From Candidatus Latescibacterota bacterium (lineage in GTDB: Bacteria; Latescibacterota; UBA2968; UBA8231), in contig CBDBIJ010000131.1 of NCBI GenBank assembly GCA_965205655.1, positions 1 through 10,785 of the forward strand: 10,785 nt of DNA. The letters are read 5' to 3'. Under the pieces are notes generated by a model. That model was given only the letters and a program-made list of their open reading frames with translations. It ran no database searches and was not told where the DNA came from. Positions 2,596 through 10,785 of this stretch are shown here, piece by piece. Each line of letters starts with the position of its first letter. Positions within the stretch are counted from its first letter, which is position 1. The position numbers were made by a program, and so were the translations under genes.

Positions 2596-4297
2596 TTGAC
2601 CACAACTGCAGAGCAAATCATACACGGCCAGCAACGGCAGCAGCCGACTCCGATGACCGGCGGCGATCTCCTCATCGAGTGCCTGAAGGCGCAGGGAGTA
2701 GGCTGCATGTTCGGGATGCCGGGCACCCAGAATCTGCAGATCTACGATGCCCTCAAGCGCTGCGGCGAGCCCGTCATCGAACACTACCTCGTGCGTCACG
2801 AGTACGCCGCGACGGTCATGGCGGACGGCTATGCGCGCTCGACCGGAGAAATCGGCGTTGCCCTGACGGTGCCGGGACCGGGGGCAAGCAACGCCTCCAC
2901 CGGGTTGCTGCAGGCATTGACCGACTGCGTGCCGGTGTTGTTGATCACCGGCCAGAGCGACAGCCGGCACTACTCGCGGGATCCGAGCAAGATGTTCCAC
3001 GGCCTCGATCAGATGCGCTTCTTCGAGCCCATCACCAAATACTGCGCCATCGCTCACAGCGCTGGGGAGATTCCGCAGGTCGTGGAGAACGCCTTTCGCG
3101 CCATGCGTTCGGGTCGGCCGGGGCCGACGATGCTGGAGTTTCCACAGGATGTGATCACATCTGAGGTGGAGGAAGCGTCGATTCCGCCGCGCGTAGAGAA
3201 GCAGCAGCCAGCTGCGCCGGACGGAGCCGAGCTTCAACGGGCTGCACGTCTGATCGAGCGGGCGGAGAGACCCGCTCTGCTCGCCGGCATGACCGTAGCC
3301 GATGGCGACGCCGGCGATGAGTTGAGAGCGCTGGCGGAGAAGCTGGCGGCGCCGGTGATCGTGTCGCGGCGCGGCAAGGGCGCGCTCCGGGAAGACCACC
3401 CGCTGGCGCTATGTGATATAAGAGGGTTTCGCTCCATGCGAGCTCTGGAAGTGGCGGATTGCACCGTGGCCATCGGCTGCAGGTTCACGTCGATCGACAC
3501 CGGGTACTGGAGCCTCGAGTTTCCGCGGCCCCTCATCCAGCTCGATCCCGAGGAGGCTGAAATCGGGCGCGAGTATGCCTGCGATGTGGGGATCGCCGGA
3601 GATCTGAAGCAGAGTCTGGGCGCGCTGCAGAGGCACGTGAGCGAGAAGAGCCAATGGGCGCCCATGCTTGAGGGTTTGCGGGCGCAGTTCGAGGCCCAAC
3701 CACCACTGCCTCTGCTGCCGGAGATACGACGGGTGCTCCCCGAGGACGGAATCGCGGCCTTCGACGTTCACGCCATCGGCTACTCGTGCTTCGCCGAGTA
3801 TCCGGTCTACGACCCGAGGACCTTTATCTATCCGTGCATCGGCGTCTCTCTGGGGCACGCCTTTCCGGCCGCGCTGGGTGCGAAGATCGCCAACCCCGAT
3901 CGGCCGGTCGTGTGTTTTAGCGGTGACGGCGGCTTCATGATGGGCAGTTTCGAGCTGGCCACGGCGATGCAGTACGGCATCGATGTGGTAACTGTCGTCG
4001 TCGTCGACGGCGCCCTGACGGCCATCAAGGCAGCGCAGCGGAAGCAGTGTGAGGGCCGCACCATCGACACGGAGCTTCACAATCCGGATTTTGTCGAGCT
4101 CGCCAGGTCGTTCGGCGCCTACGCCGAGCGCGTAGAGGACCTGGCGCGCTTCGAGGATGCTCTGCGCCAGGCCCTGGCTTCCGGGGCGCCCGGCAGTGCT
4201 GGAAGTGTCGCTGCAAGGGCGGCAGGAGGAGCTGATGGAGTGGGTGACCTGGCTGCGAGAAGAGCCCCTCCGCGGTCCGGCCGAGGCTTCGCAATGA
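2596..4297 (+). CDS. Thiamine diphosphate-dependent enzyme (acetolactate synthase/pyruvate oxidase superfamily) with a one-base frameshift near the 3' end
   Basis: MTGGDLLIECLKAQGV..FGMPG, RHE (catalytic Glu), MADGYAR, GPGASN, AMRSGRPGP and SGDGGF motifs. Deleting one G from GGGG 4183-4186 gives the family-typical end ALASGRPAVLEV...* with stop 4295-4297. Start is TTG 2596 (566 aa corrected) or ATG 2653 (547 aa). Confidence 0.88.
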
Positions 4298-4644
4298 GAG
4301 TCGTACGGTTCAACGAAGCGGAGCGCTACGAGCCGGAGAAGGACTGGAAGCGGCTGAGTCTGTGTGCCGGCGGTGACATCTCGATCGAGCATTTCGTCAA
4401 GCCTCCCGGCCACGCTTCGCCGAGACACGACCACCCGAACGCCCAGATTCTCGTCGTTCTCGAAGGGAGAATGCTCATCACCACAGATGACGAGGAAGTC
4501 GAACTCGGGAAGGGTGACACCGCCTACATTCCCGGCGACGAGCCGCATGTGGTGACGAATCCACTGGATGAGCCATCGGTGGGCCTGGACATTTTCGTGC
4601 CCGGGCGCTCGTTCGACTTCTGGCTCAAACGGCAGCAAAGCTGA
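4294..4644 (+). CDS. Stand-alone cupin-domain protein (116 aa, Cupin_2-like)
   Basis: The ATG overlaps the corrected stop of the ThDP gene (ATGA, 4294-4297). Cupin motif 1 is PRHDHPNAQILVVLEG and motif 2 is GDTAYIPGDEPHVVTN. Confidence 0.88.
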   Translation: MRVVRFNEAERYEPEKDWKRLSLCAGGDISIEHFVKPPGHASPRHDHPNAQILVVLEGRMLITTDDEEVELGKGDTAYIPGDEPHVVTNPLDEPSVGLDIFVPGRSFDFWLKRQQS

Positions 4645-4659
4645 GAGAGGAGATAGATC

Positions 4660-5682
4660 GTGAAAATGGCCATGCTCCACGGTCCCCGGGATCTGCGGAT
4701 CGATGAACAGGAACTGGATACGACGAACCTGGCTGACAATGAGGTTTGGGTGGAAACGGAGATCACGGCGCTGAAGATCGGCACTGACCGAGGCAACTAC
4801 GAGGGCGCCGAACACGTCCCCGGGGCTCCGCAGGAGTATCCGCGCTGGGTCGGAGACAGCAATCTGGGAGTCGTGCGCGGGGTGGGCAACAAGGTGTCGC
4901 GATTTCAGATCGGCGACCGCGTCGTGTCCCGCAAGTTTCACCAATCAGAGTACGTCGCCCCGGAAATTGGCGGAGAGCACCTCGTAAAGGTTCCGGAGGG
5001 GGTGGACTCGGAGGACGCGGTCTGGTCGCACCTCTACGCCCTGAGCTCTCTGTGTTACACGAAGGCGCTGTTCATGCCGGGCGAGAACGTGGCAGTGGTC
5101 GGGCTCGGCGTTCTCGGCCTGGGAGCTGTCGGAGTGGGTCAGGCGATCGGAGCCCGGGTGGTCGGCCTGGCAAACAGCCCCGTGAGGATGGAGATGGCAA
5201 AGAAGGTGGGCGCCCACGCCTGCTTCATGTCCGACGACGCTGATCTCAAGAAGAAACTGGACGAGTTCACCGACGGCGTGGGGATCGATCTCGTCATTCT
5301 CACGGCCAACCCATGGCCGGCATTTCGCACCTCGCTGGATGTCGTACGGAACAGCGGGCGGGTCTCGGTGGTCAGTCTGCTCGGGCGTGGCGAGGAGAAG
5401 CTCGAGTCCAATCCCCTGCCGATGGACCTGTTCTATATGAAGGGCATTTCCATCATCGCCGTGTCATCTCAGCCCGGCTACCTGTTTCCCGACGGCAGCG
5501 GCGACCGCTATGACGGGATGAAGCGGTGCAGCCATATGCTGTCTCTGATGGCAGACGGCAGGCTCGAGCCGAAGCAGTTGATTACCCACCGGCTCAACTA
5601 CACAAAAATGAAAGAGGCCTACGAGATGATCTACCACCGCGAGAAAAACATGCTCGGCGTCATTTTCCGGTGGCGGGATTGA
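4660..5682 (+). CDS. MDR-superfamily (alcohol dehydrogenase-like) oxidoreductase lacking the canonical zinc ligands
   Basis: RBS GAGAGGAG before GTG. GroES-like N-terminus (LHGPRDLR...EVWV...GTD...IGDRVV), Rossmann motif VVGLGVLG, and C-terminal LITHR...EAYE...GVIF.W. Confidence 0.9.
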   Translation: MKMAMLHGPRDLRIDEQELDTTNLADNEVWVETEITALKIGTDRGNYEGAEHVPGAPQEYPRWVGDSNLGVVRGVGNKVSRFQIGDRVVSRKFHQSEYVAPEIGGEHLVKVPEGVDSEDAVWSHLYALSSLCYTKALFMPGENVAVVGLGVLGLGAVGVGQAIGARVVGLANSPVRMEMAKKVGAHACFMSDDADLKKKLDEFTDGVGIDLVILTANPWPAFRTSLDVVRNSGRVSVVSLLGRGEEKLESNPLPMDLFYMKGISIIAVSSQPGYLFPDGSGDRYDGMKRCSHMLSLMADGRLEPKQLITHRLNYTKMKEAYEMIYHREKNMLGVIFRWRD

Positions 5683-8507
5683 CCCAGACCGCCGAACTGA
5701 ATCTGGGTGACCGCACGGCACCCGCGCCCACAGCAGGGAAGAAAGCATACCTGCTCGACGGCATGGCCCTCGTCTACCGGGGCTACTTCGCCATGATCAA
5801 GAATCCACCGAGGACGGCGACGGGGATGAACACGGCCGCTGCCTTCGTGTTCACATCCACCCTCCTCGAGATCATGGACAAGTACCAGCCGACACACATG
5901 GCCGTCGCCTTCGATACTCCCGTACCGACCTACCGCCACGAGGAGTTCCCCGCGTACAAGGCCCAGCGGGAAGAGATGCCAGACGACCTGTCGCAGGCCC
6001 TGCCTGCCATTTTCCGGCTGTGCGAGGGCTTCAATCTGCCGGTCATTCGGGTCGACGGGTGGGAGGCGGACGACGTTATCGGCACCCTGGCGACCGCAGC
6101 CGAGCCGCTGGGTTTCGACACCTACATGGTGACGCCGGACAAGGACTTCGCCCAGCTCGTGTCCGAGCACACCTTCATCTACAAGCCCGGCAGGGCGGGC
6201 AGGGACACTGAGATTCTCGGCGTTGGTGAGGTGCTCGAAAAATGGCAGGTCGAGCGGGTCGATCAGGTGGTGGACATTCTGGCGCTGATGGGCGACTCGG
6301 TCGACAACATTCCGGGCGTTCCCGGCATCGGACAGAAGACGGCGCAGAAACTCATCGCCGAGTTCGACAGCGTCGAGAATCTCCTCGAGCACGTGGACGA
6401 GATAAAAGGGAAGCGACGTCAGGTACTGGAGGACAACAGGCAGAATGCCCTGCTGTCGAAGAGACTGGTGACGATTCAGCGCGACGTGTCGCTGGACGTT
6501 ACGATGGAGGATCTGATAAGAAAACCGCTCGATGAGGATGCTCTGAAGGAACTGTTCGGCGAGCTCGAGTTCAAGATGTTCGGCAAGAGGCTGTTCGGCG
6601 AGGGATTCGACACGAGCCCTCAGAAGGTGACGGTGCGGCAGGACGGCAGCGGCGATGGCGGCGTCCAGGAAGAGCTCGACCTGGATCTGAAAACCATCGA
6701 CACCGTGGAACACGACTATCGCCTCGTGGAAGATGTAGACGCGTTTGCAACTCTCATGCGAGAGCTGGAGAATCGCGGTTCCTTCTGTCTCGATCTGGAG
6801 ACCTCGAGTCTGAACCCGAAGGCATGCGATATCGTCGGCATGGCCGTCTCATATGAGCCTCACACCGGATTCTACGTGCCCCTTTCAGGTGATGGTGGAT
6901 CGGATACCGGCTTCACTCTCGACGATCTGCGGCCGGCTCTGGAGAATCCCGCCATCGAAAAGATCGGTCACAACCTGAAGTTCGATTTGCTCGCTTTGCG
7001 CTGGCACGGCGTCGAGGTCAAGGGCAAGCTGTTCGATACCATGGTCGTGGCGTTTCTGGCCACCCCGGATCTGCGGCGCGGCCTCGACTATCTGTCACAG
7101 GCGCTGCTGGGTTACAAGCCGGTGCCGATATCGGCGCTTCTCGGGGAAAAGGGAAGCGAGCAGCGAAGCATGGCCGAGGTACCTCTCGAGGAGGTCACCG
7201 AATACGCGGTCGAGGACGCCGATCTAACACTGCAGCTGAGCGAGATCCTTCGGGGCGAGATGGAAGAGAAGAACCAGACGCGCCTCTACGAAGAGGTGGA
7301 GTACCCGCTCATACCGGTGCTCGCCGCTATGGAGCACGCGGGTATTCGCGTCGACGCCGATGTCTTGAGAGACCTGTCAGAAGAGATGGCAGCCGATATC
7401 GAGGCTGCGGCAAAGCAGATAGAGGAGCTGGCCGGCGAGCCGTTCAACCTGAACTCGCCGAGCCAGCTTGGCACGATCCTGTTCGACAAGCTGAAGCTCG
7501 ATCCCCACGCGCGGCGAACGCAGAAGAGCAAACAGTACAAGACCGATGAGCTCGTTCTGACGAAGCTCTCCCACGAACATGAGATCGCCCGTCAGATCCT
7601 CGACTACCGCCTGTGCACGAAGCTGAAGTCGACGTATCTCGACATGCTGCCGGGAACCATCTTCCCGCAGACCGGGCGGGTGCACACCTACTACGAGCAG
7701 GCTGTCGCCGCCACCGGGCGCATGCAGTCCAGCAACCCGAATCTCCAGAACATCCCAATCCGTACCGAGCGGGGTCGCGAGATCAGGATGGCCTTCGTGC
7801 CGGGCGGGGACGACTACACGCTGCTGACGGCGGACTACTCACAGATCGAGCTTCGCGTCATCGCGGAAATGAGTGGCGACGAACGGATGAACCGGGCCTT
7901 TCGGACGGGAGAGGATATCCACACGGTGACCGCGAGTCGGGTGTACGAGGTGCCACCGGATGAGGTGACCGACGACATGCGGCGCAAGTCGAAGACGGTC
8001 AACTTCGGCATCATCTACGGTATTTCCGCTTTCGGGCTGTCGGAGCGGCTCGGTCTGCCGCGCGGGACTGCCTCGGAGATGATCGAGCATTATTTCGAGG
8101 AATACCCCGGCGTGCGCCGGCATATGGACGAGGCGATCGAATTCGCCAGAGAAAACGGATATGTCGAGACGATGATGGGAAGGCGTCGCTACTTGCGGGA
8201 TATCAACTCCCGCAGCGCTGCGGCTCGCAAGGCGGCGGAGCGCAACGCCATCAACTCGCCGATTCAGGGTACGGCGGCGGACATGATCAAGCTGGCGATG
8301 GTGAAGATCCACGAGGCTCAGGTGGAGAGGGGGTGGAAGACGAAGATGCTGCTGCAAGTTCACGACGAGCTGGTTTTCGATCTGTTCCGCGAGGAGGAGG
8401 TGGAGGTGAAGGAGGTGGTCGAGGACGCCATGAAGACGGCGATTCCGATGTCGGTGCCGATTGAAGTGGAGATGGGAACGGGGGAGAACTGGTTGGTGGC
8501 GCATTGA
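5679..8507 (+). CDS. polA: DNA polymerase I (5'-3' exonuclease, 3'-5' exonuclease, family A polymerase), about 942 aa
   Basis: 5' nuclease: LLDGMALVYR, YKAQR, EADDVIGTLA, DKD, GDSVDNIPGVPGIGQKTA. Proofreading: ExoI DLET, ExoII HNLKFD, ExoIII YAVED. Polymerase: motif A DYSQIELR, motif B RRKSKTVNFGIIYG, motif C VHDEL. Start is inferred at TTG 5679, overlapping the upstream TGA; the track start at 5526 lies deep inside the MDR gene. Confidence 0.98.
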   Translation: MTQTAELNLGDRTAPAPTAGKKAYLLDGMALVYRGYFAMIKNPPRTATGMNTAAAFVFTSTLLEIMDKYQPTHMAVAFDTPVPTYRHEEFPAYKAQREEMPDDLSQALPAIFRLCEGFNLPVIRVDGWEADDVIGTLATAAEPLGFDTYMVTPDKDFAQLVSEHTFIYKPGRAGRDTEILGVGEVLEKWQVERVDQVVDILALMGDSVDNIPGVPGIGQKTAQKLIAEFDSVENLLEHVDEIKGKRRQVLEDNRQNALLSKRLVTIQRDVSLDVTMEDLIRKPLDEDALKELFGELEFKMFGKRLFGEGFDTSPQKVTVRQDGSGDGGVQEELDLDLKTIDTVEHDYRLVEDVDAFATLMRELENRGSFCLDLETSSLNPKACDIVGMAVSYEPHTGFYVPLSGDGGSDTGFTLDDLRPALENPAIEKIGHNLKFDLLALRWHGVEVKGKLFDTMVVAFLATPDLRRGLDYLSQALLGYKPVPISALLGEKGSEQRSMAEVPLEEVTEYAVEDADLTLQLSEILRGEMEEKNQTRLYEEVEYPLIPVLAAMEHAGIRVDADVLRDLSEEMAADIEAAAKQIEELAGEPFNLNSPSQLGTILFDKLKLDPHARRTQKSKQYKTDELVLTKLSHEHEIARQILDYRLCTKLKSTYLDMLPGTIFPQTGRVHTYYEQAVAATGRMQSSNPNLQNIPIRTERGREIRMAFVPGGDDYTLLTADYSQIELRVIAEMSGDERMNRAFRTGEDIHTVTASRVYEVPPDEVTDDMRRKSKTVNFGIIYGISAFGLSERLGLPRGTASEMIEHYFEEYPGVRRHMDEAIEFARENGYVETMMGRRRYLRDINSRSAAARKAAERNAINSPIQGTAADMIKLAMVKIHEAQVERGWKTKMLLQVHDELVFDLFREEEVEVKEVVEDAMKTAIPMSVPIEVEMGTGENWLVAH

Positions 8508-8530
8508 TGAGGGTCGCATGTCTGGGGTGC

Positions 8531-8667
8531 GGGCGGTCCGGTGTGTCACGCTCACTCATTCTCGCAGCGCCATCCAGGCGCTGCTCCGAGGTTTTCGCTC
8601 GCAGGCCGTCATCCTGACGGCCGGACTGCGAGCTCTCAATCCGTTCGCGCGACACACCGGACCGCCC
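8531..8667. repeat. Structured extragenic repeat element, copy 1 (137 bp between terminal inverted repeats; similarity extends to about 8514-8697)
   Basis: GGGCGGTCCGGTGTGTC (8531-8547) and GACACACCGGACCGCCC (8651-8667) form a perfect 17-bp inverted repeat. Internal hairpins lie at 8564-8584 and 8597-8633. Segment 8583-8646 matches 10668-10731 at 63/64 positions. Confidence 0.92.
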
Positions 8668-8787
8668 TTTGTCCGCGAATATCAAGTAATCAGCAAGTTA
8701 CACATTCACCAGGTCTCTCGCGCAGAAATCGATGACGGCGGGCGCTGTGGTGGTCTCGCGACGGCCTGAACAGACGAGGATATCACG

Positions 8788-9360
8788 ATGGCAGTTGTGA
8801 ATGATTTCGAGGCTGGTCCTGAAGGTTGGTGCTCCTACGACTATCATGCCAGCATGGTCGCCGGTGCGAACTACTTTGTCCTGACTACGTGGGAGGAAAG
8901 CGGTAGTGTCGGTGATTCGGGGTCCGTGTGGGCGGATCACACGCGTTGGAGCACTGACGTCCCGGAGAGACCCGTTTCCATCCTGCCGCTCATCCTGTAT
9001 CGCAACTGGCTCGGCGAGCCCCCGATCGATCTGCGCGGGTCAGGGCTCTCCGTCCAGCTCAGGGGAGACGAACTGAAGCTTGGCGACGCGGAGTGCTACT
9101 TCTGGGCCCACGCCAGCGGTACCCGCTGGCATTGCAAGGGTAGGCCAGTCGAGATCTCCGCTGGTCGCTGGGCTGAACCATCCCGGTTCACTCTCGAAAG
9201 CGACGAATCACTTTGGTACCGCAGCTGGGTCCGGGACCCCGCTAAAGCGGCTGATCTCGACACCGTGCTCGGGGGCGCCGCGAGCTACGGTTTTTCCTTC
9301 GTCGGCTTCACTCAGGAGGTAACTGGAAAGCTGTCGATGGGTCGCTTCGAGATTTCGTGA
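8788..9360 (+). CDS. Hypothetical protein (190 aa), Trp-rich, possibly a galactose-binding-like beta-sandwich (CIA30/CBM11-like)
   Basis: RBS GAGGA (8776-8780) before ATG, and the ORF fills the gap cleanly. It has an N-terminal NDFE...GW, a central DLRG..LSVQLRG and a C-terminal G.L.MGRFEI strand pattern, with 10 Trp and no signal peptide. The fold is inferred. Confidence 0.75.
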   Translation: MAVVNDFEAGPEGWCSYDYHASMVAGANYFVLTTWEESGSVGDSGSVWADHTRWSTDVPERPVSILPLILYRNWLGEPPIDLRGSGLSVQLRGDELKLGDAECYFWAHASGTRWHCKGRPVEISAGRWAEPSRFTLESDESLWYRSWVRDPAKAADLDTVLGGAASYGFSFVGFTQEVTGKLSMGRFEIS

Positions 9361-9387
9361 GAGTTCTTCCGAAACGTTCAGCCTTGT

Positions 9388-10429
9388 TCACTCTCCGGTC
9401 GATGGGATTTCTGTCGAATCGAGACCATCGGCCAGCGGCAGCGGCACCTGCGTCCCGGTCTTGTGAGAGATATGCATGGCCGTGATCACCTCGAGCGCCT
9501 TGAGCCCGTCCCGACCGGTCGAGACGCTCTCCCCGATTCTCCAGCAGGCAGTCGACACTCTCGCGCGCCGCCGCGTGGAATGAGTTGGAGAGACGGGCTG
9601 CGTCGGGCATATCGGGAATGGGTTCGAGGTCAAAGTGGGCACCGTAGCCCCCGTCCGGCTCCTCGACCAGCGGTCCGTACTCCCAGATGCCGCGACGGTC
9701 GCAGAAATTGATCCGTCCGGCGCTTCCGGCGATCGAAGCATGACCGAGGGTTTCTTTACGCTCGACGATGCAGTTGATGAAGATGACGATGTCTTCGCTG
9801 CAGGCGATCATCCCCGCTCCGCCGGGGTCGACGACGGGTTCGTCGTTGAGATAGCCGGAGACGAGCAGGGGTTCGGCTGGCGCGAGGTAGAGCGCACCGT
9901 CTACGACGTGCGTGCCATTGTGTAGCAGCGGGCGGCATCCGTCCCAAGTTACCGTCTTCATTTTGCCAACCGCTCCTGCGTCGATCATCTGTTTGAGCCT
10001 GCGATAATGCGGCAGGAAGCGGCGTGTGTGCTCCGTGATCAGCCGTGCTCCGGCGCGCTCACACGCCTCCACCATGGAGCGGCCGAGGGCCACGCTGATA
10101 GCCAGCGGCTTCTCCACCATTATCACCTCAATTCCGGCCTCGGCCGCGTCGATGACGGGTTGGTGGTGGTAGAGGTTGTGCGTGGTCACACTGACGACAT
10201 CCAGGTTCGCCTTCTCGTACATGTCCACGGCGGTGGGATAGCGGTGCTCCGGCGCGATTTCCCACTCTTCGCCGAACTGTTGCAGCCGCTCGGCGTTAAT
10301 GTCTGCTACGGCTACCAGCTCGGCATCTTCGCAGCAGCGATAGCCGCCAGCGTGAGAATTCGTCCGGGCTCCCAGGCCGGCCACAGGTCCGGCTCCGACT
10401 ATCCCTACTCTGACTTTCGACCTTGCCAT
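9388..10429 (-). CDS. Gfo/Idh/MocA family oxidoreductase (346 aa after correcting a one-base frameshift)
   Basis: RBS GGGAG, Rossmann motif VGIVGAG, LVAVADIN, DVVSVTT, EKP motif, HTRRF.P and HNGTHVVD. Deleting one base from CCCC 9531-9534 joins DCLLENR to ESVSTGRDGLKALEVITAMHISHKTGTQVPLPL, the family-typical C-terminus, and removes the overlap with the 8788-9360 gene. Confidence 0.9.
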
Positions 10430-10576
10430 ATGATATGCTCCCGTCGCAGTAATCTCGGCTCATGGCTCATTCGTTGCCAGCCCCCTGATGTCGTTACTCT
10501 GAGCTGAATGGGTCAGTCTGCGTCCAGGACGTAGCTCGCGTCGGCTGCAGTATCTTGCTTCGCATGAACAAGGTGG

Positions 10577-10752
10577 GGGCGGTCCGGTGTGTCGCGCTCC
10601 ACTCATGATCCGAATCGACCTTGTGCGATTCGGCCACATCCCTGTGCTCGCTCGCCATCCATGGCTCGCTCCGAGGTTTTCGCTCGCAGGCCGTCATCCT
10701 GACGGCCAGACTGCGAGCTCTCAATCCGTTCCGGCGACACACCGGACCGCCT
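10577..10752. repeat. Structured extragenic repeat element, copy 2 (176 bp; similarity extends to about 10560-10781)
   Basis: Perfect 18-bp inverted repeat GGCGGTCCGGTGTGTCGC (10578-10595) / GCGACACACCGGACCGCC (10734-10751). It has the same core and orientation as copy 1, plus an extra 40-nt two-hairpin module at 10607-10646. Confidence 0.92.
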
Positions 10753-10785
10753 TTGCCTGCCAACATCAGGTGGTCAGCTAGGCTT

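What the first reader, a model, noticed from the sequence alone, without database searches (positions are those of the whole stretch)
10607..10707. Hairpin loops read GGA on the minus strand: candidate CsrA/RsmA-binding RNA built into a repeat
Seen on the minus strand of copy 2: GGCCGTCA-GGA-TGACGGCC (10689-10707), GCCA-TGGA-TGGC (10654-10665) and CACA-GGGA-TGTG (10635-10646). A fourth hairpin (10610-10633) has the near-motif ACAAGGT in its loop. Copy 1 has GCAGCGCC-TGGAT-GGCGCTGC (8564-8584) and GGCCGTCA-GGA-TGACGGCC (8604-8622). The stems differ from each other while the GGATG loop motif is constant. Established: CsrA/RsmA binds GGA in hairpin loops (SELEX consensus RUACARGGAUGU), as in CsrB and RsmY/Z; 10636-10645 minus reads ACAGGGAUGU, matching that core. 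Inference: a dispersed, possibly mobile CsrA-titrating RNA or binding cassette. The constant loop could instead be a ssDNA recognition site for an HUH nuclease. csrA is not in this window.
Basis: partly seen in the sequence, partly recalled or inferred. Interest (0 to 1): 0.75.

Follow-up and report, generated by a model that had tools for sequence, protein, structure and literature searches.

The report
Mobile repeat whose loops track CsrA
The hairpins belong to a small gene-less repeat found in many bacterial groups, whose loops read like binding sites for the RNA regulator CsrA mostly in genomes that encode CsrA, which hints that it binds CsrA as RNA, although neither transcription nor binding has been shown.

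Summary
They belong to a dispersed 140-185 nt gene-less repeat: 7 full copies in this genome, relatives in about ten phyla. It has three invariant junction motifs, a ~24-bp outer stem and two hairpins whose stems vary freely but stay paired. G-U bias marks the GGA strand as the folded one (147 vs 62).

A search that left the loops free gave a natural experiment. csrA was found in 27 of 37 genomes with GGA loops and 3 of 35 without; in Thermodesulfovibrionia, 20 of 21 against 0 of 16. Only three of those switches are independent on a tree (p 0.25). Three Bdellovibrionota genomes go against the trend.

This genome has no csrA hit, but its contig ends inside flgL, which precedes fliW-csrA in 5 of 5 relatives examined.

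A dedicated sponge gene is unsupported: no promoter or terminator, random orientation, no RNA data. The scan had already noted this core and other GGA-loop repeats; the listings shown mention no csrA test.

The parts
10577..10751 (-). Repeat copy 2 (long form, four inner hairpins); the folded strand is the minus strand
10577..10597 (-). P1 outer stem, one arm of copy 2 (pairs with 10734-10751)
   Evidence: (I11)
10734..10751 (-). P1 outer stem, other arm of copy 2
   Evidence: (I11)
10602..10607 (+). Junction motif 1 (family consensus CTCATT-CTC), here split by the inserted module
10608..10646 (-). 39-nt optional module, present in 4 of 7 copies: hairpin 10610-10633 (loop not conserved) and hairpin 10635-10646 with a CsrA-consensus loop (GGA at 10641, 19 nt from the P2 GGA). 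The second hairpin recurs in an unrelated repeat family of relative G020
10654..10665 (-). P2 hairpin of copy 2, loop AUGGAU (GGA at 10660)
10670..10676 (+). Junction motif 2, TCCGAGG; also kept in genomes without csrA (the search pattern required it)
10682..10718 (-). P3 long hairpin of copy 2; inner stem 10689-10707, loop AGGAU (GGA at 10699)
10723..10728 (+). Junction motif 3, AATCCG
8531..8668 (-). Repeat copy 1 (basic three-arm form), 24 nt behind the polA stop: P1 arms 8531-8552 and 8647-8668, motif 1 8555-8563, P2 8564-8584, motif 2 8585-8591, P3 8597-8633, motif 3 8638-8643

Best explanation
A non-autonomous dispersed repeat (MITE/ERIC-like passenger core) whose purine-rich strand folds as a three-way-junction RNA closed by a ~24-bp stem. 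In hosts that encode CsrA, its two apical loops have been shaped into CsrA binding sites. SHOWN: the multi-copy family, the fold with covariation, the strand, insertion polymorphism, DDE-type MITE ends with target duplications in Thermodesulfovibrio, and the loop-csrA association. INFERRED: (1) copies are moved as DNA by transposases acting in trans; the partner in this genome is unknown. (2) The GGA strand becomes RNA by read-through from neighbouring genes in the roughly half to three quarters of sites where that strand is transcribed. (3) CsrA dimers bind the loops, which shields the transcript from nucleases or makes the insertion tolerable, so GGA variants persist and seed new copies where CsrA exists and lose the motif where csrA is lost. 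(4) The sequence-free, length-conserved P1 may be an RNase III substrate that releases the unit as a small stable RNA and a weak distributed CsrA sink.
For: Loop consensus C-(A/C)-N-GGA-N-G with free N positions, from 102 P2 loops, fits the SELEX consensus RUACARGGAUGU and the CsrB repeat CAGGA(U/A/C)G (PMC7652899, passages) and the CANGGANG hexaloop (PMC4894983, passages). Loops are bimodal by genome. csrA in 27 of 37 GGA genomes vs 3 of 35 non-GGA; 20 of 21 vs 0 of 16 in a class sample. All three switches on the RpoB tree go with csrA. Two further within-phylum contrasts agree: G575/G125 vs G296 and, by record title, Nitrospinota G121 vs G084. Two non-GGA genomes have intact flgK-flgL with no fliW/csrA in the 3.6-3.8 kb behind it (G084, G118), so the trait follows csrA better than flagella. 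G-U 147 vs A-C 62 on the GGA strand. Two of the seven flagellin-family leaders in this genome have a perfect CsrA-type hairpin just before the start codon. RNase III is present.
Against: No RNA data and no binding data. Independent contrasts are few: 3 same, 0 opposite, 1 tie, sign test p 0.25; five concordant contrasts would still give only about p 0.06. Three Bdellovibrionota genomes with 2-3 csrA genes carry 24 copies without minus-strand GGA in P2, although Bdellovibrio CsrA represses hag (PMC13443453, passages). 10 of 37 GGA genomes have no csrA hit; 8 of 11 such genomes have flagellin, but a gap at flgL was shown only for G128. This genome's own csrA was not found. csrA and flagella are largely confounded: flagellin in 2 of 24 non-GGA genomes. 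Orientation is random (19/18/16/16), and loops inverted to the other strand are tolerated (3 of 19 copies in G004; 1 of 21 in G085). G-T wobble also stabilises ssDNA, so strand bias alone does not prove RNA.
Confidence: 0.55

Rival explanations
1. Historical linkage: GGA and non-GGA loops are element subfamilies that spread in a few lineages, and the match with csrA comes from a handful of events or from another factor of the flagellar regulon.
For: Only 3 independent switches in the tested class (p 0.25); csrA and flagellin are largely confounded; the Bdellovibrionota exception; tolerated loop inversions.
Against: The same subfamily scaffold (shared P2 and P3 arms) has GGA loops in csrA-positive G070 and other loops in csrA-negative relatives. 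Within one genome many different P2 stems all keep the GGA, e.g. 26 of 26 listed in G209 and 18 of 18 in G211. The varying positions are the ones CsrA leaves free. G084 and G118 are flagellated, lack csrA and lack GGA loops.
Confidence: 0.2
2. Each copy is a domesticated, separately transcribed CsrB/RsmY-like sponge RNA gene.
For: Two to three loop GGAs plus junction GGAs on one strand in 140-185 nt; the P2 and module sites lie 19 nt apart, near the 18-nt optimum cited in PMC4894983; association with csrA.
Against: No promoter or terminator match in 8400-10785. No excess of -10-like hexamers before P1 on the GGA strand (14 vs 12 of 65) and no U-tract after it (9 vs 15). Sites are polymorphic between congeners. 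The scaffold persists without loop GGA where csrA is absent. No Rfam Csr/Rsm hit.
Confidence: 0.12
3. The fold and loops are ssDNA signals for an HUH or other nuclease that mobilises the element (REPIN/RAYT-like).
For: Invariant junction motifs with sequence-free stems suggest recognition of a single-stranded fold; purine-strand mismatches also suit ssDNA; most copies show no target duplication (11% vs 5% control).
Against: No PF01797 hit in this genome (84% complete). No recurring nuclease or transposase among 384 neighbouring ORFs. Loops differ completely between hosts. One lineage moves the core inside DDE-type MITE ends. It does not explain the link to an RNA-binding protein. It could still hold for the junction motifs, though not for the loops.
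Confidence: 0.13

Closest known systems
Bacterial MITEs with folded transcripts: ERIC/IRU, Correia (NEMIS), Chunjie (review PMC10969869, passages read)
   Same: Short, gene-less, intergenic, multi-copy and strongly folded. In Thermodesulfovibrio a ~205-bp form with terminal inverted repeats and ~9-11-bp target duplications. RNase III and RNase E act on Correia and ERIC transcripts according to that review.
   Different: The conserved part is an internal three-way junction shared across phyla; the closing stem is free in sequence; in this genome no outer IS-type ends or target duplication were found. The word CsrA does not occur in the main text of that review.
CsrB/CsrC/RsmX-Y-Z sponge RNAs
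   Same: Several hairpins presenting A(N)GGAN on one strand; loops match the CsrB repeat and the SELEX consensus.
   Different: Multi-copy and mobile; only 2-3 loop sites; no promoter or terminator; occurs in fliW-type hosts, where such sRNAs were proposed to be rare (PMC4682653, passages); no Rfam match.
TD-1/TD-2 motifs of Treponema denticola (Weinberg 2007, PMC1950547, passages read)
   Same: Multi-copy (28 and 36) structured motifs with covarying, modular stems and unclear function in a non-gammaproteobacterial host.
   Different: No Rfam hit to them at E up to 5 (window) or E up to 1 (20 related loci); reported from one species only; the passage read draws no CsrA link.
REPINs / RAYT-associated REP doublets (recalled)
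   Same: Inverted arms around a spacer, intergenic, often close to stop codons.
   Different: The arms here are not conserved in sequence; no Y1 transposase was found in the genome or beside copies.

Membership tests
MITE (non-autonomous DDE-derived element) | Short, no gene of its own, multi-copy, intergenic | tested here: met
   7 full copies in own genome; up to 40 pattern matches per genome in Thermodesulfovibrionia; neighbours unrelated
MITE (non-autonomous DDE-derived element) | Conserved terminal inverted repeats with target-site duplication | tested here: inconclusive
   Met for the Thermodesulfovibrio form. Not found for the window's copies or for P1 ends generally (TSD 11% vs 5% control); the empty sites in genus g12 show none
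MITE (non-autonomous DDE-derived element) | Autonomous IS with the same ends | tested here: inconclusive
   26 TIR loci inspected by eye of their longest ORF; none looked like a transposase between the ends, several cut by contig ends; no family scan run on them
CsrB/RsmY-type sRNA | Several unpaired A(N)GGA motifs in hairpin loops on one strand | tested here: met
CsrB/RsmY-type sRNA | Own promoter and intrinsic terminator at a conserved locus | tested here: not met
   (sigma-70-type consensus scans only)
CsrB/RsmY-type sRNA | Match to an Rfam Csr/Rsm model | tested here: not met
CsrB/RsmY-type sRNA | Host encodes CsrA | tested here: inconclusive
   No hit in own genome; contig C25 ends inside flgL; flgL-fliW-csrA in 5 of 5 relatives examined; csrA in 21 of 36 family relatives
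CsrB/RsmY-type sRNA | Transcribed and binds CsrA through GGA | not testable with these tools
   No RNA holder listed; binding needs an experiment
REPIN/RAYT system | Y1 HUH transposase in the genome, flanked by the repeats | tested here: not met
   genome 84% complete
REPIN/RAYT system | Sequence-conserved palindromic arms | tested here: not met
   117 distinct P1 arms among 131 copies; 11 of 47 pairs with compensatory change among the 7 own copies
TD-1/TD-2 motifs | Match to the Rfam model | tested here: not met

The most novel reading that the evidence does not exclude
A cross-phylum mobile RNA scaffold that adapts its loops to the host's CsrA. It is cut from read-through transcripts as a stable ~130-180-nt RNA and acts as a distributed, transposon-spread CsrA sponge in FliW-type bacteria thought to lack Csr RNAs; it could be the raw material from which CsrB/RsmY-type RNAs arose.
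Probability: 0.2. Interest if true: 0.85.

Novelty: new variant of a known kind. Interest (0 to 1): 0.63.

Why it matters
If the loops bind CsrA, small mobile elements are co-evolving with a global RNA regulator and scattering up to dozens of its binding sites per genome, in phyla where CsrA was thought to be checked by FliW rather than by RNA. The family comes with its own control, the same fold with and without GGA loops in close relatives, so a long-open question (do non-gammaproteobacteria have CsrA-titrating RNAs, and where do such RNAs come from) can be tested with one binding assay and one RIP-seq.

Tried and rejected
Rfam: no meaningful hit for the window (E up to 5) or for 20 related loci (E up to 1). 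HUH Y1 transposase in own genome: none. Recurring mobile gene beside copies: none among 384 ORFs; one own copy lies about 360 nt behind an IS256-type transposase and the partial copy behind an IS630-type one, taken as incidental. Plasmid collection: no match. Viral contigs: one hit without hairpins, taken as chance. Promoter, terminator and target-duplication signals at P1 ends: none above controls. Genome-wide scans for GGA hairpins and clusters: no enrichment. Sequencing runs: no RNA holder listed; contigs of four runs showed no joint that skips either copy; neither is evidence on expression. A within-Planctomycetota contrast was dropped because G125's phylum sample consisted of small genomes that do not fit its record title. 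No non-GGA version turned up in csrA-negative members of the window's own family; the element was simply not found there, so that gives no contrast. The two junction GGAs were not counted as CsrA evidence, because the search pattern required them and genomes without csrA keep them. The careful tree did not finish; the quick trees are reported. Rows left out: L130 and L188 (little or no folding, taken as chance) and viral L190 from the csrA test; 24 single-match genomes of the class sample; 9 of the 37 class genomes from the tree (7 not submitted, 2 without an RpoB hit).

Full report
Observation. Every quoted hairpin is at the stated place. They lie in two copies of one repeat, about 8531-8668 behind polA and about 10577-10751 in front of a Gfo/Idh/MocA gene. 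Copy 2 folds far better than shuffles on both strands. Rfam has nothing for it. The genome (G000, 4.0 Mb, 84% complete) holds 7 full copies and one partial module. The lineage is probably Latescibacterota; this is an inference from element variants shared between family relatives and records so titled. The fourth hairpin's 'near-motif' loop is not conserved and is no evidence.

Anatomy. On the strand shown in the window the order is: P1 arm, CTCATTCTC, hairpin P2, TCCGAGG, long hairpin P3, AATCCG, P1 arm. Among the 7 own copies 11 of 47 predicted pairs show compensatory change, nearly all in P1. Among 131 distinct copies from all loci, arms pair with their own partner far better than with another copy's: P1 0.91 vs 0.56, P2 0.95 vs 0.52, P3 0.88 vs 0.59; 117 P1 arms are distinct. 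P1 reaches a median 24 bp from the junction (10-90%: 21-28; 106 copies). Isolated mismatches in 153 copies are G-T 147 times and A-C 62 times on the GGA strand, in GGA and non-GGA copies alike (copies are related, so the p value overstates). Four own copies carry a 39-nt insert with one more CsrA-type hairpin; that hairpin also occurs in a differently built repeat of relative G020, so modules appear to be swapped between repeat families.

Distribution and mobility. Neighbouring genes are unrelated and no transposase or nuclease recurs. Orthologous sites are filled in some congeners and empty in others. In Thermodesulfovibrio the core sits inside a 203-205-bp element with terminal inverted repeats and target duplications of about 9-11 bp (the label 'IS4-like' is recalled). 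No such ends were found around the window's copies, so their mobiliser is unknown.

The CsrA test. Loop content is bimodal by genome. GGA loops read C-(A/C)-N-GGA-N-G with free N positions (102 P2 loops; P3 similar, 89 loops). This fits RUACARGGAUGU and CAGGA(U/A/C)G (PMC7652899, passages) and CANGGANG (PMC4894983, passages). Of 72 genomes tested for PF02599, 27 of 37 with GGA loops and 3 of 35 without had csrA. In a 151-genome sample of Thermodesulfovibrionia, 89 had csrA and 37 had two or more core matches; csrA was in 20 of 21 with mostly GGA P2 loops and 0 of 16 without (for G209 and G224 only the listed copies were seen; 24 single-match genomes left out; six genomes overlap with the first set). 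On quick RpoB trees of 28 of these genomes the loop state changes three times and csrA follows each time: independent pairs 3 same, 0 opposite, 1 tie, p 0.25. Two more contrasts agree (G575/G125 vs G296; Nitrospinota G121 vs G084 by title). In the window's family the GGA pattern occurs in 9 of 36 relatives, 8 of them csrA-positive, against a base rate of 21 of 36 (Fisher p 0.05).

Against it. Three Bdellovibrionota genomes with 2-3 csrA genes hold 24 copies without minus-strand GGA in P2. Ten GGA genomes lack a csrA hit; 8 of 11 such genomes have flagellin, and only for G128 was flgL shown to be cut by a contig end. csrA and flagella mostly go together (flagellin in 2 of 24 non-GGA genomes); those two, G084 and G118, have flgK-flgL without fliW-csrA behind it, which favours csrA but rests on two incomplete genomes. 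Loops inverted to the other strand occur. Orientation of GGA copies to flanking ORFs is even (19, 18, 16, 16 of 69; crude ORF calls); in this genome the GGA strand is sense at 3 of 7 sites.

This genome's csrA. PF02599 and FliW were not found. Contig C25 ends inside flgL after flgK, and in 5 of 5 relatives examined flgL is followed by fliW and csrA. Two of seven flagellin-family leaders have a perfect CsrA-type hairpin just before the start codon. An assembly gap is the likely explanation (inference).

Mechanism. Best reading (0.55): a DNA-mobilised passenger core that is selected as RNA on its GGA strand when read through, with loops tuned to CsrA in hosts that have it. CsrA protection against RNase E is established for flhDC and CsrB; RNase III cleavage at MITE inverted repeats is established for Correia elements (PMC10969869, passages); RNase III is encoded here. 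Applying either to this element is inference. The scaffold must have a CsrA-independent role, since CPR and flagellum-less Nitrospirota keep it. Rivals: historical linkage (0.2), ssDNA/HUH signal (0.13), dedicated sponge genes (0.12).

Comparison. It works like a folded MITE of the ERIC/Correia kind carrying CsrB-like loops, but is a member of neither a named MITE family nor the Csr sRNAs by the tests run. Nine literature searches listed no paper describing this element or CsrA sites in bacterial MITEs. I read passages only of PMC13443453, PMC4383904, PMC1950547, PMC4682653, PMC5694010, PMC10969869, PMC7366521, PMC2267715, PMC7652899, PMC9788540 and PMC4894983, and no supplements; motif lists in supplements (Weinberg 2007, Cozzuto 2008) and papers outside the library could hold it. 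The hosts examined use fliW-type CsrA, for which sRNA antagonists were proposed to be rare (PMC4682653). Earlier notes of this scan report what looks like the same core in Thermodesulfovibrionia and GGA-loop repeats in other groups; they are unchecked leads, and the short listings shown mention no test against csrA presence.

Verdict. A real, apparently undescribed cross-phylum structured repeat; new variant of a known kind. Its link to CsrA is supported by comparative evidence of modest phylogenetic depth and is untested at the bench. Interest 0.63.

Noticed in passing
G000 C109 ~5155-5330, C110 ~6545-6720, C81 ~35467-35586 (parts on C18, C135): A second repeat family, related to the G020 repeats, with different ends; two copies seen carry a hairpin whose loop region reads ACAGGAUGU, matching the CsrA SELEX core.
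   Followed up: partly
G000 C69 ~6220-6330, minus strand: Intergenic cluster of about five GGA motifs, two in CsrA-type loops, ending in a hairpin plus U-run just before a gene; a candidate genuine Csr-type sRNA or CsrA-controlled leader.
   Followed up: no
G000 C76 ~8200 (-) and C9 ~5207 (-); also C46 ~935 (-): CsrA-type hairpins just before start codons: two flagellin genes and one unidentified gene.
   Followed up: partly
window 9531: Contigs of three of four runs lack one base here; the odd C-terminus of the Gfo/Idh/MocA ORF (9308-10429) is probably an assembly frameshift.
   Followed up: partly
window ~4185-4280: The TPP-enzyme ORF appears fused to a cupin (2596-4644), probably through a frameshift near 4190; a separate ATG for the cupin lies at about 4274.
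   Followed up: no
L193 (G034 C94) vs L057, L192: At an orthologous site the P1 arms remain while the core is replaced by unrelated sequence.
   Followed up: no
G004 C216, C341, C519; G012 C18; G085 C118: Copies in which a hairpin loop is inverted, putting GGA on the other strand; suggests template switching between stem arms.
   Followed up: partly
G000 C44 and C109 copies, right flank: Both share a short G/C inverted motif and an A-rich tail beyond P1, perhaps remains of an outer element end.
   Followed up: no
G067, G101, G104: Bdellovibrionota genomes with 2-3 csrA genes and 10-15 flagellin-family hits whose copies lack GGA loops.
   Followed up: partly
window 8788-9360: 190-aa ORF without a Pfam match between the two copies.
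   Followed up: no
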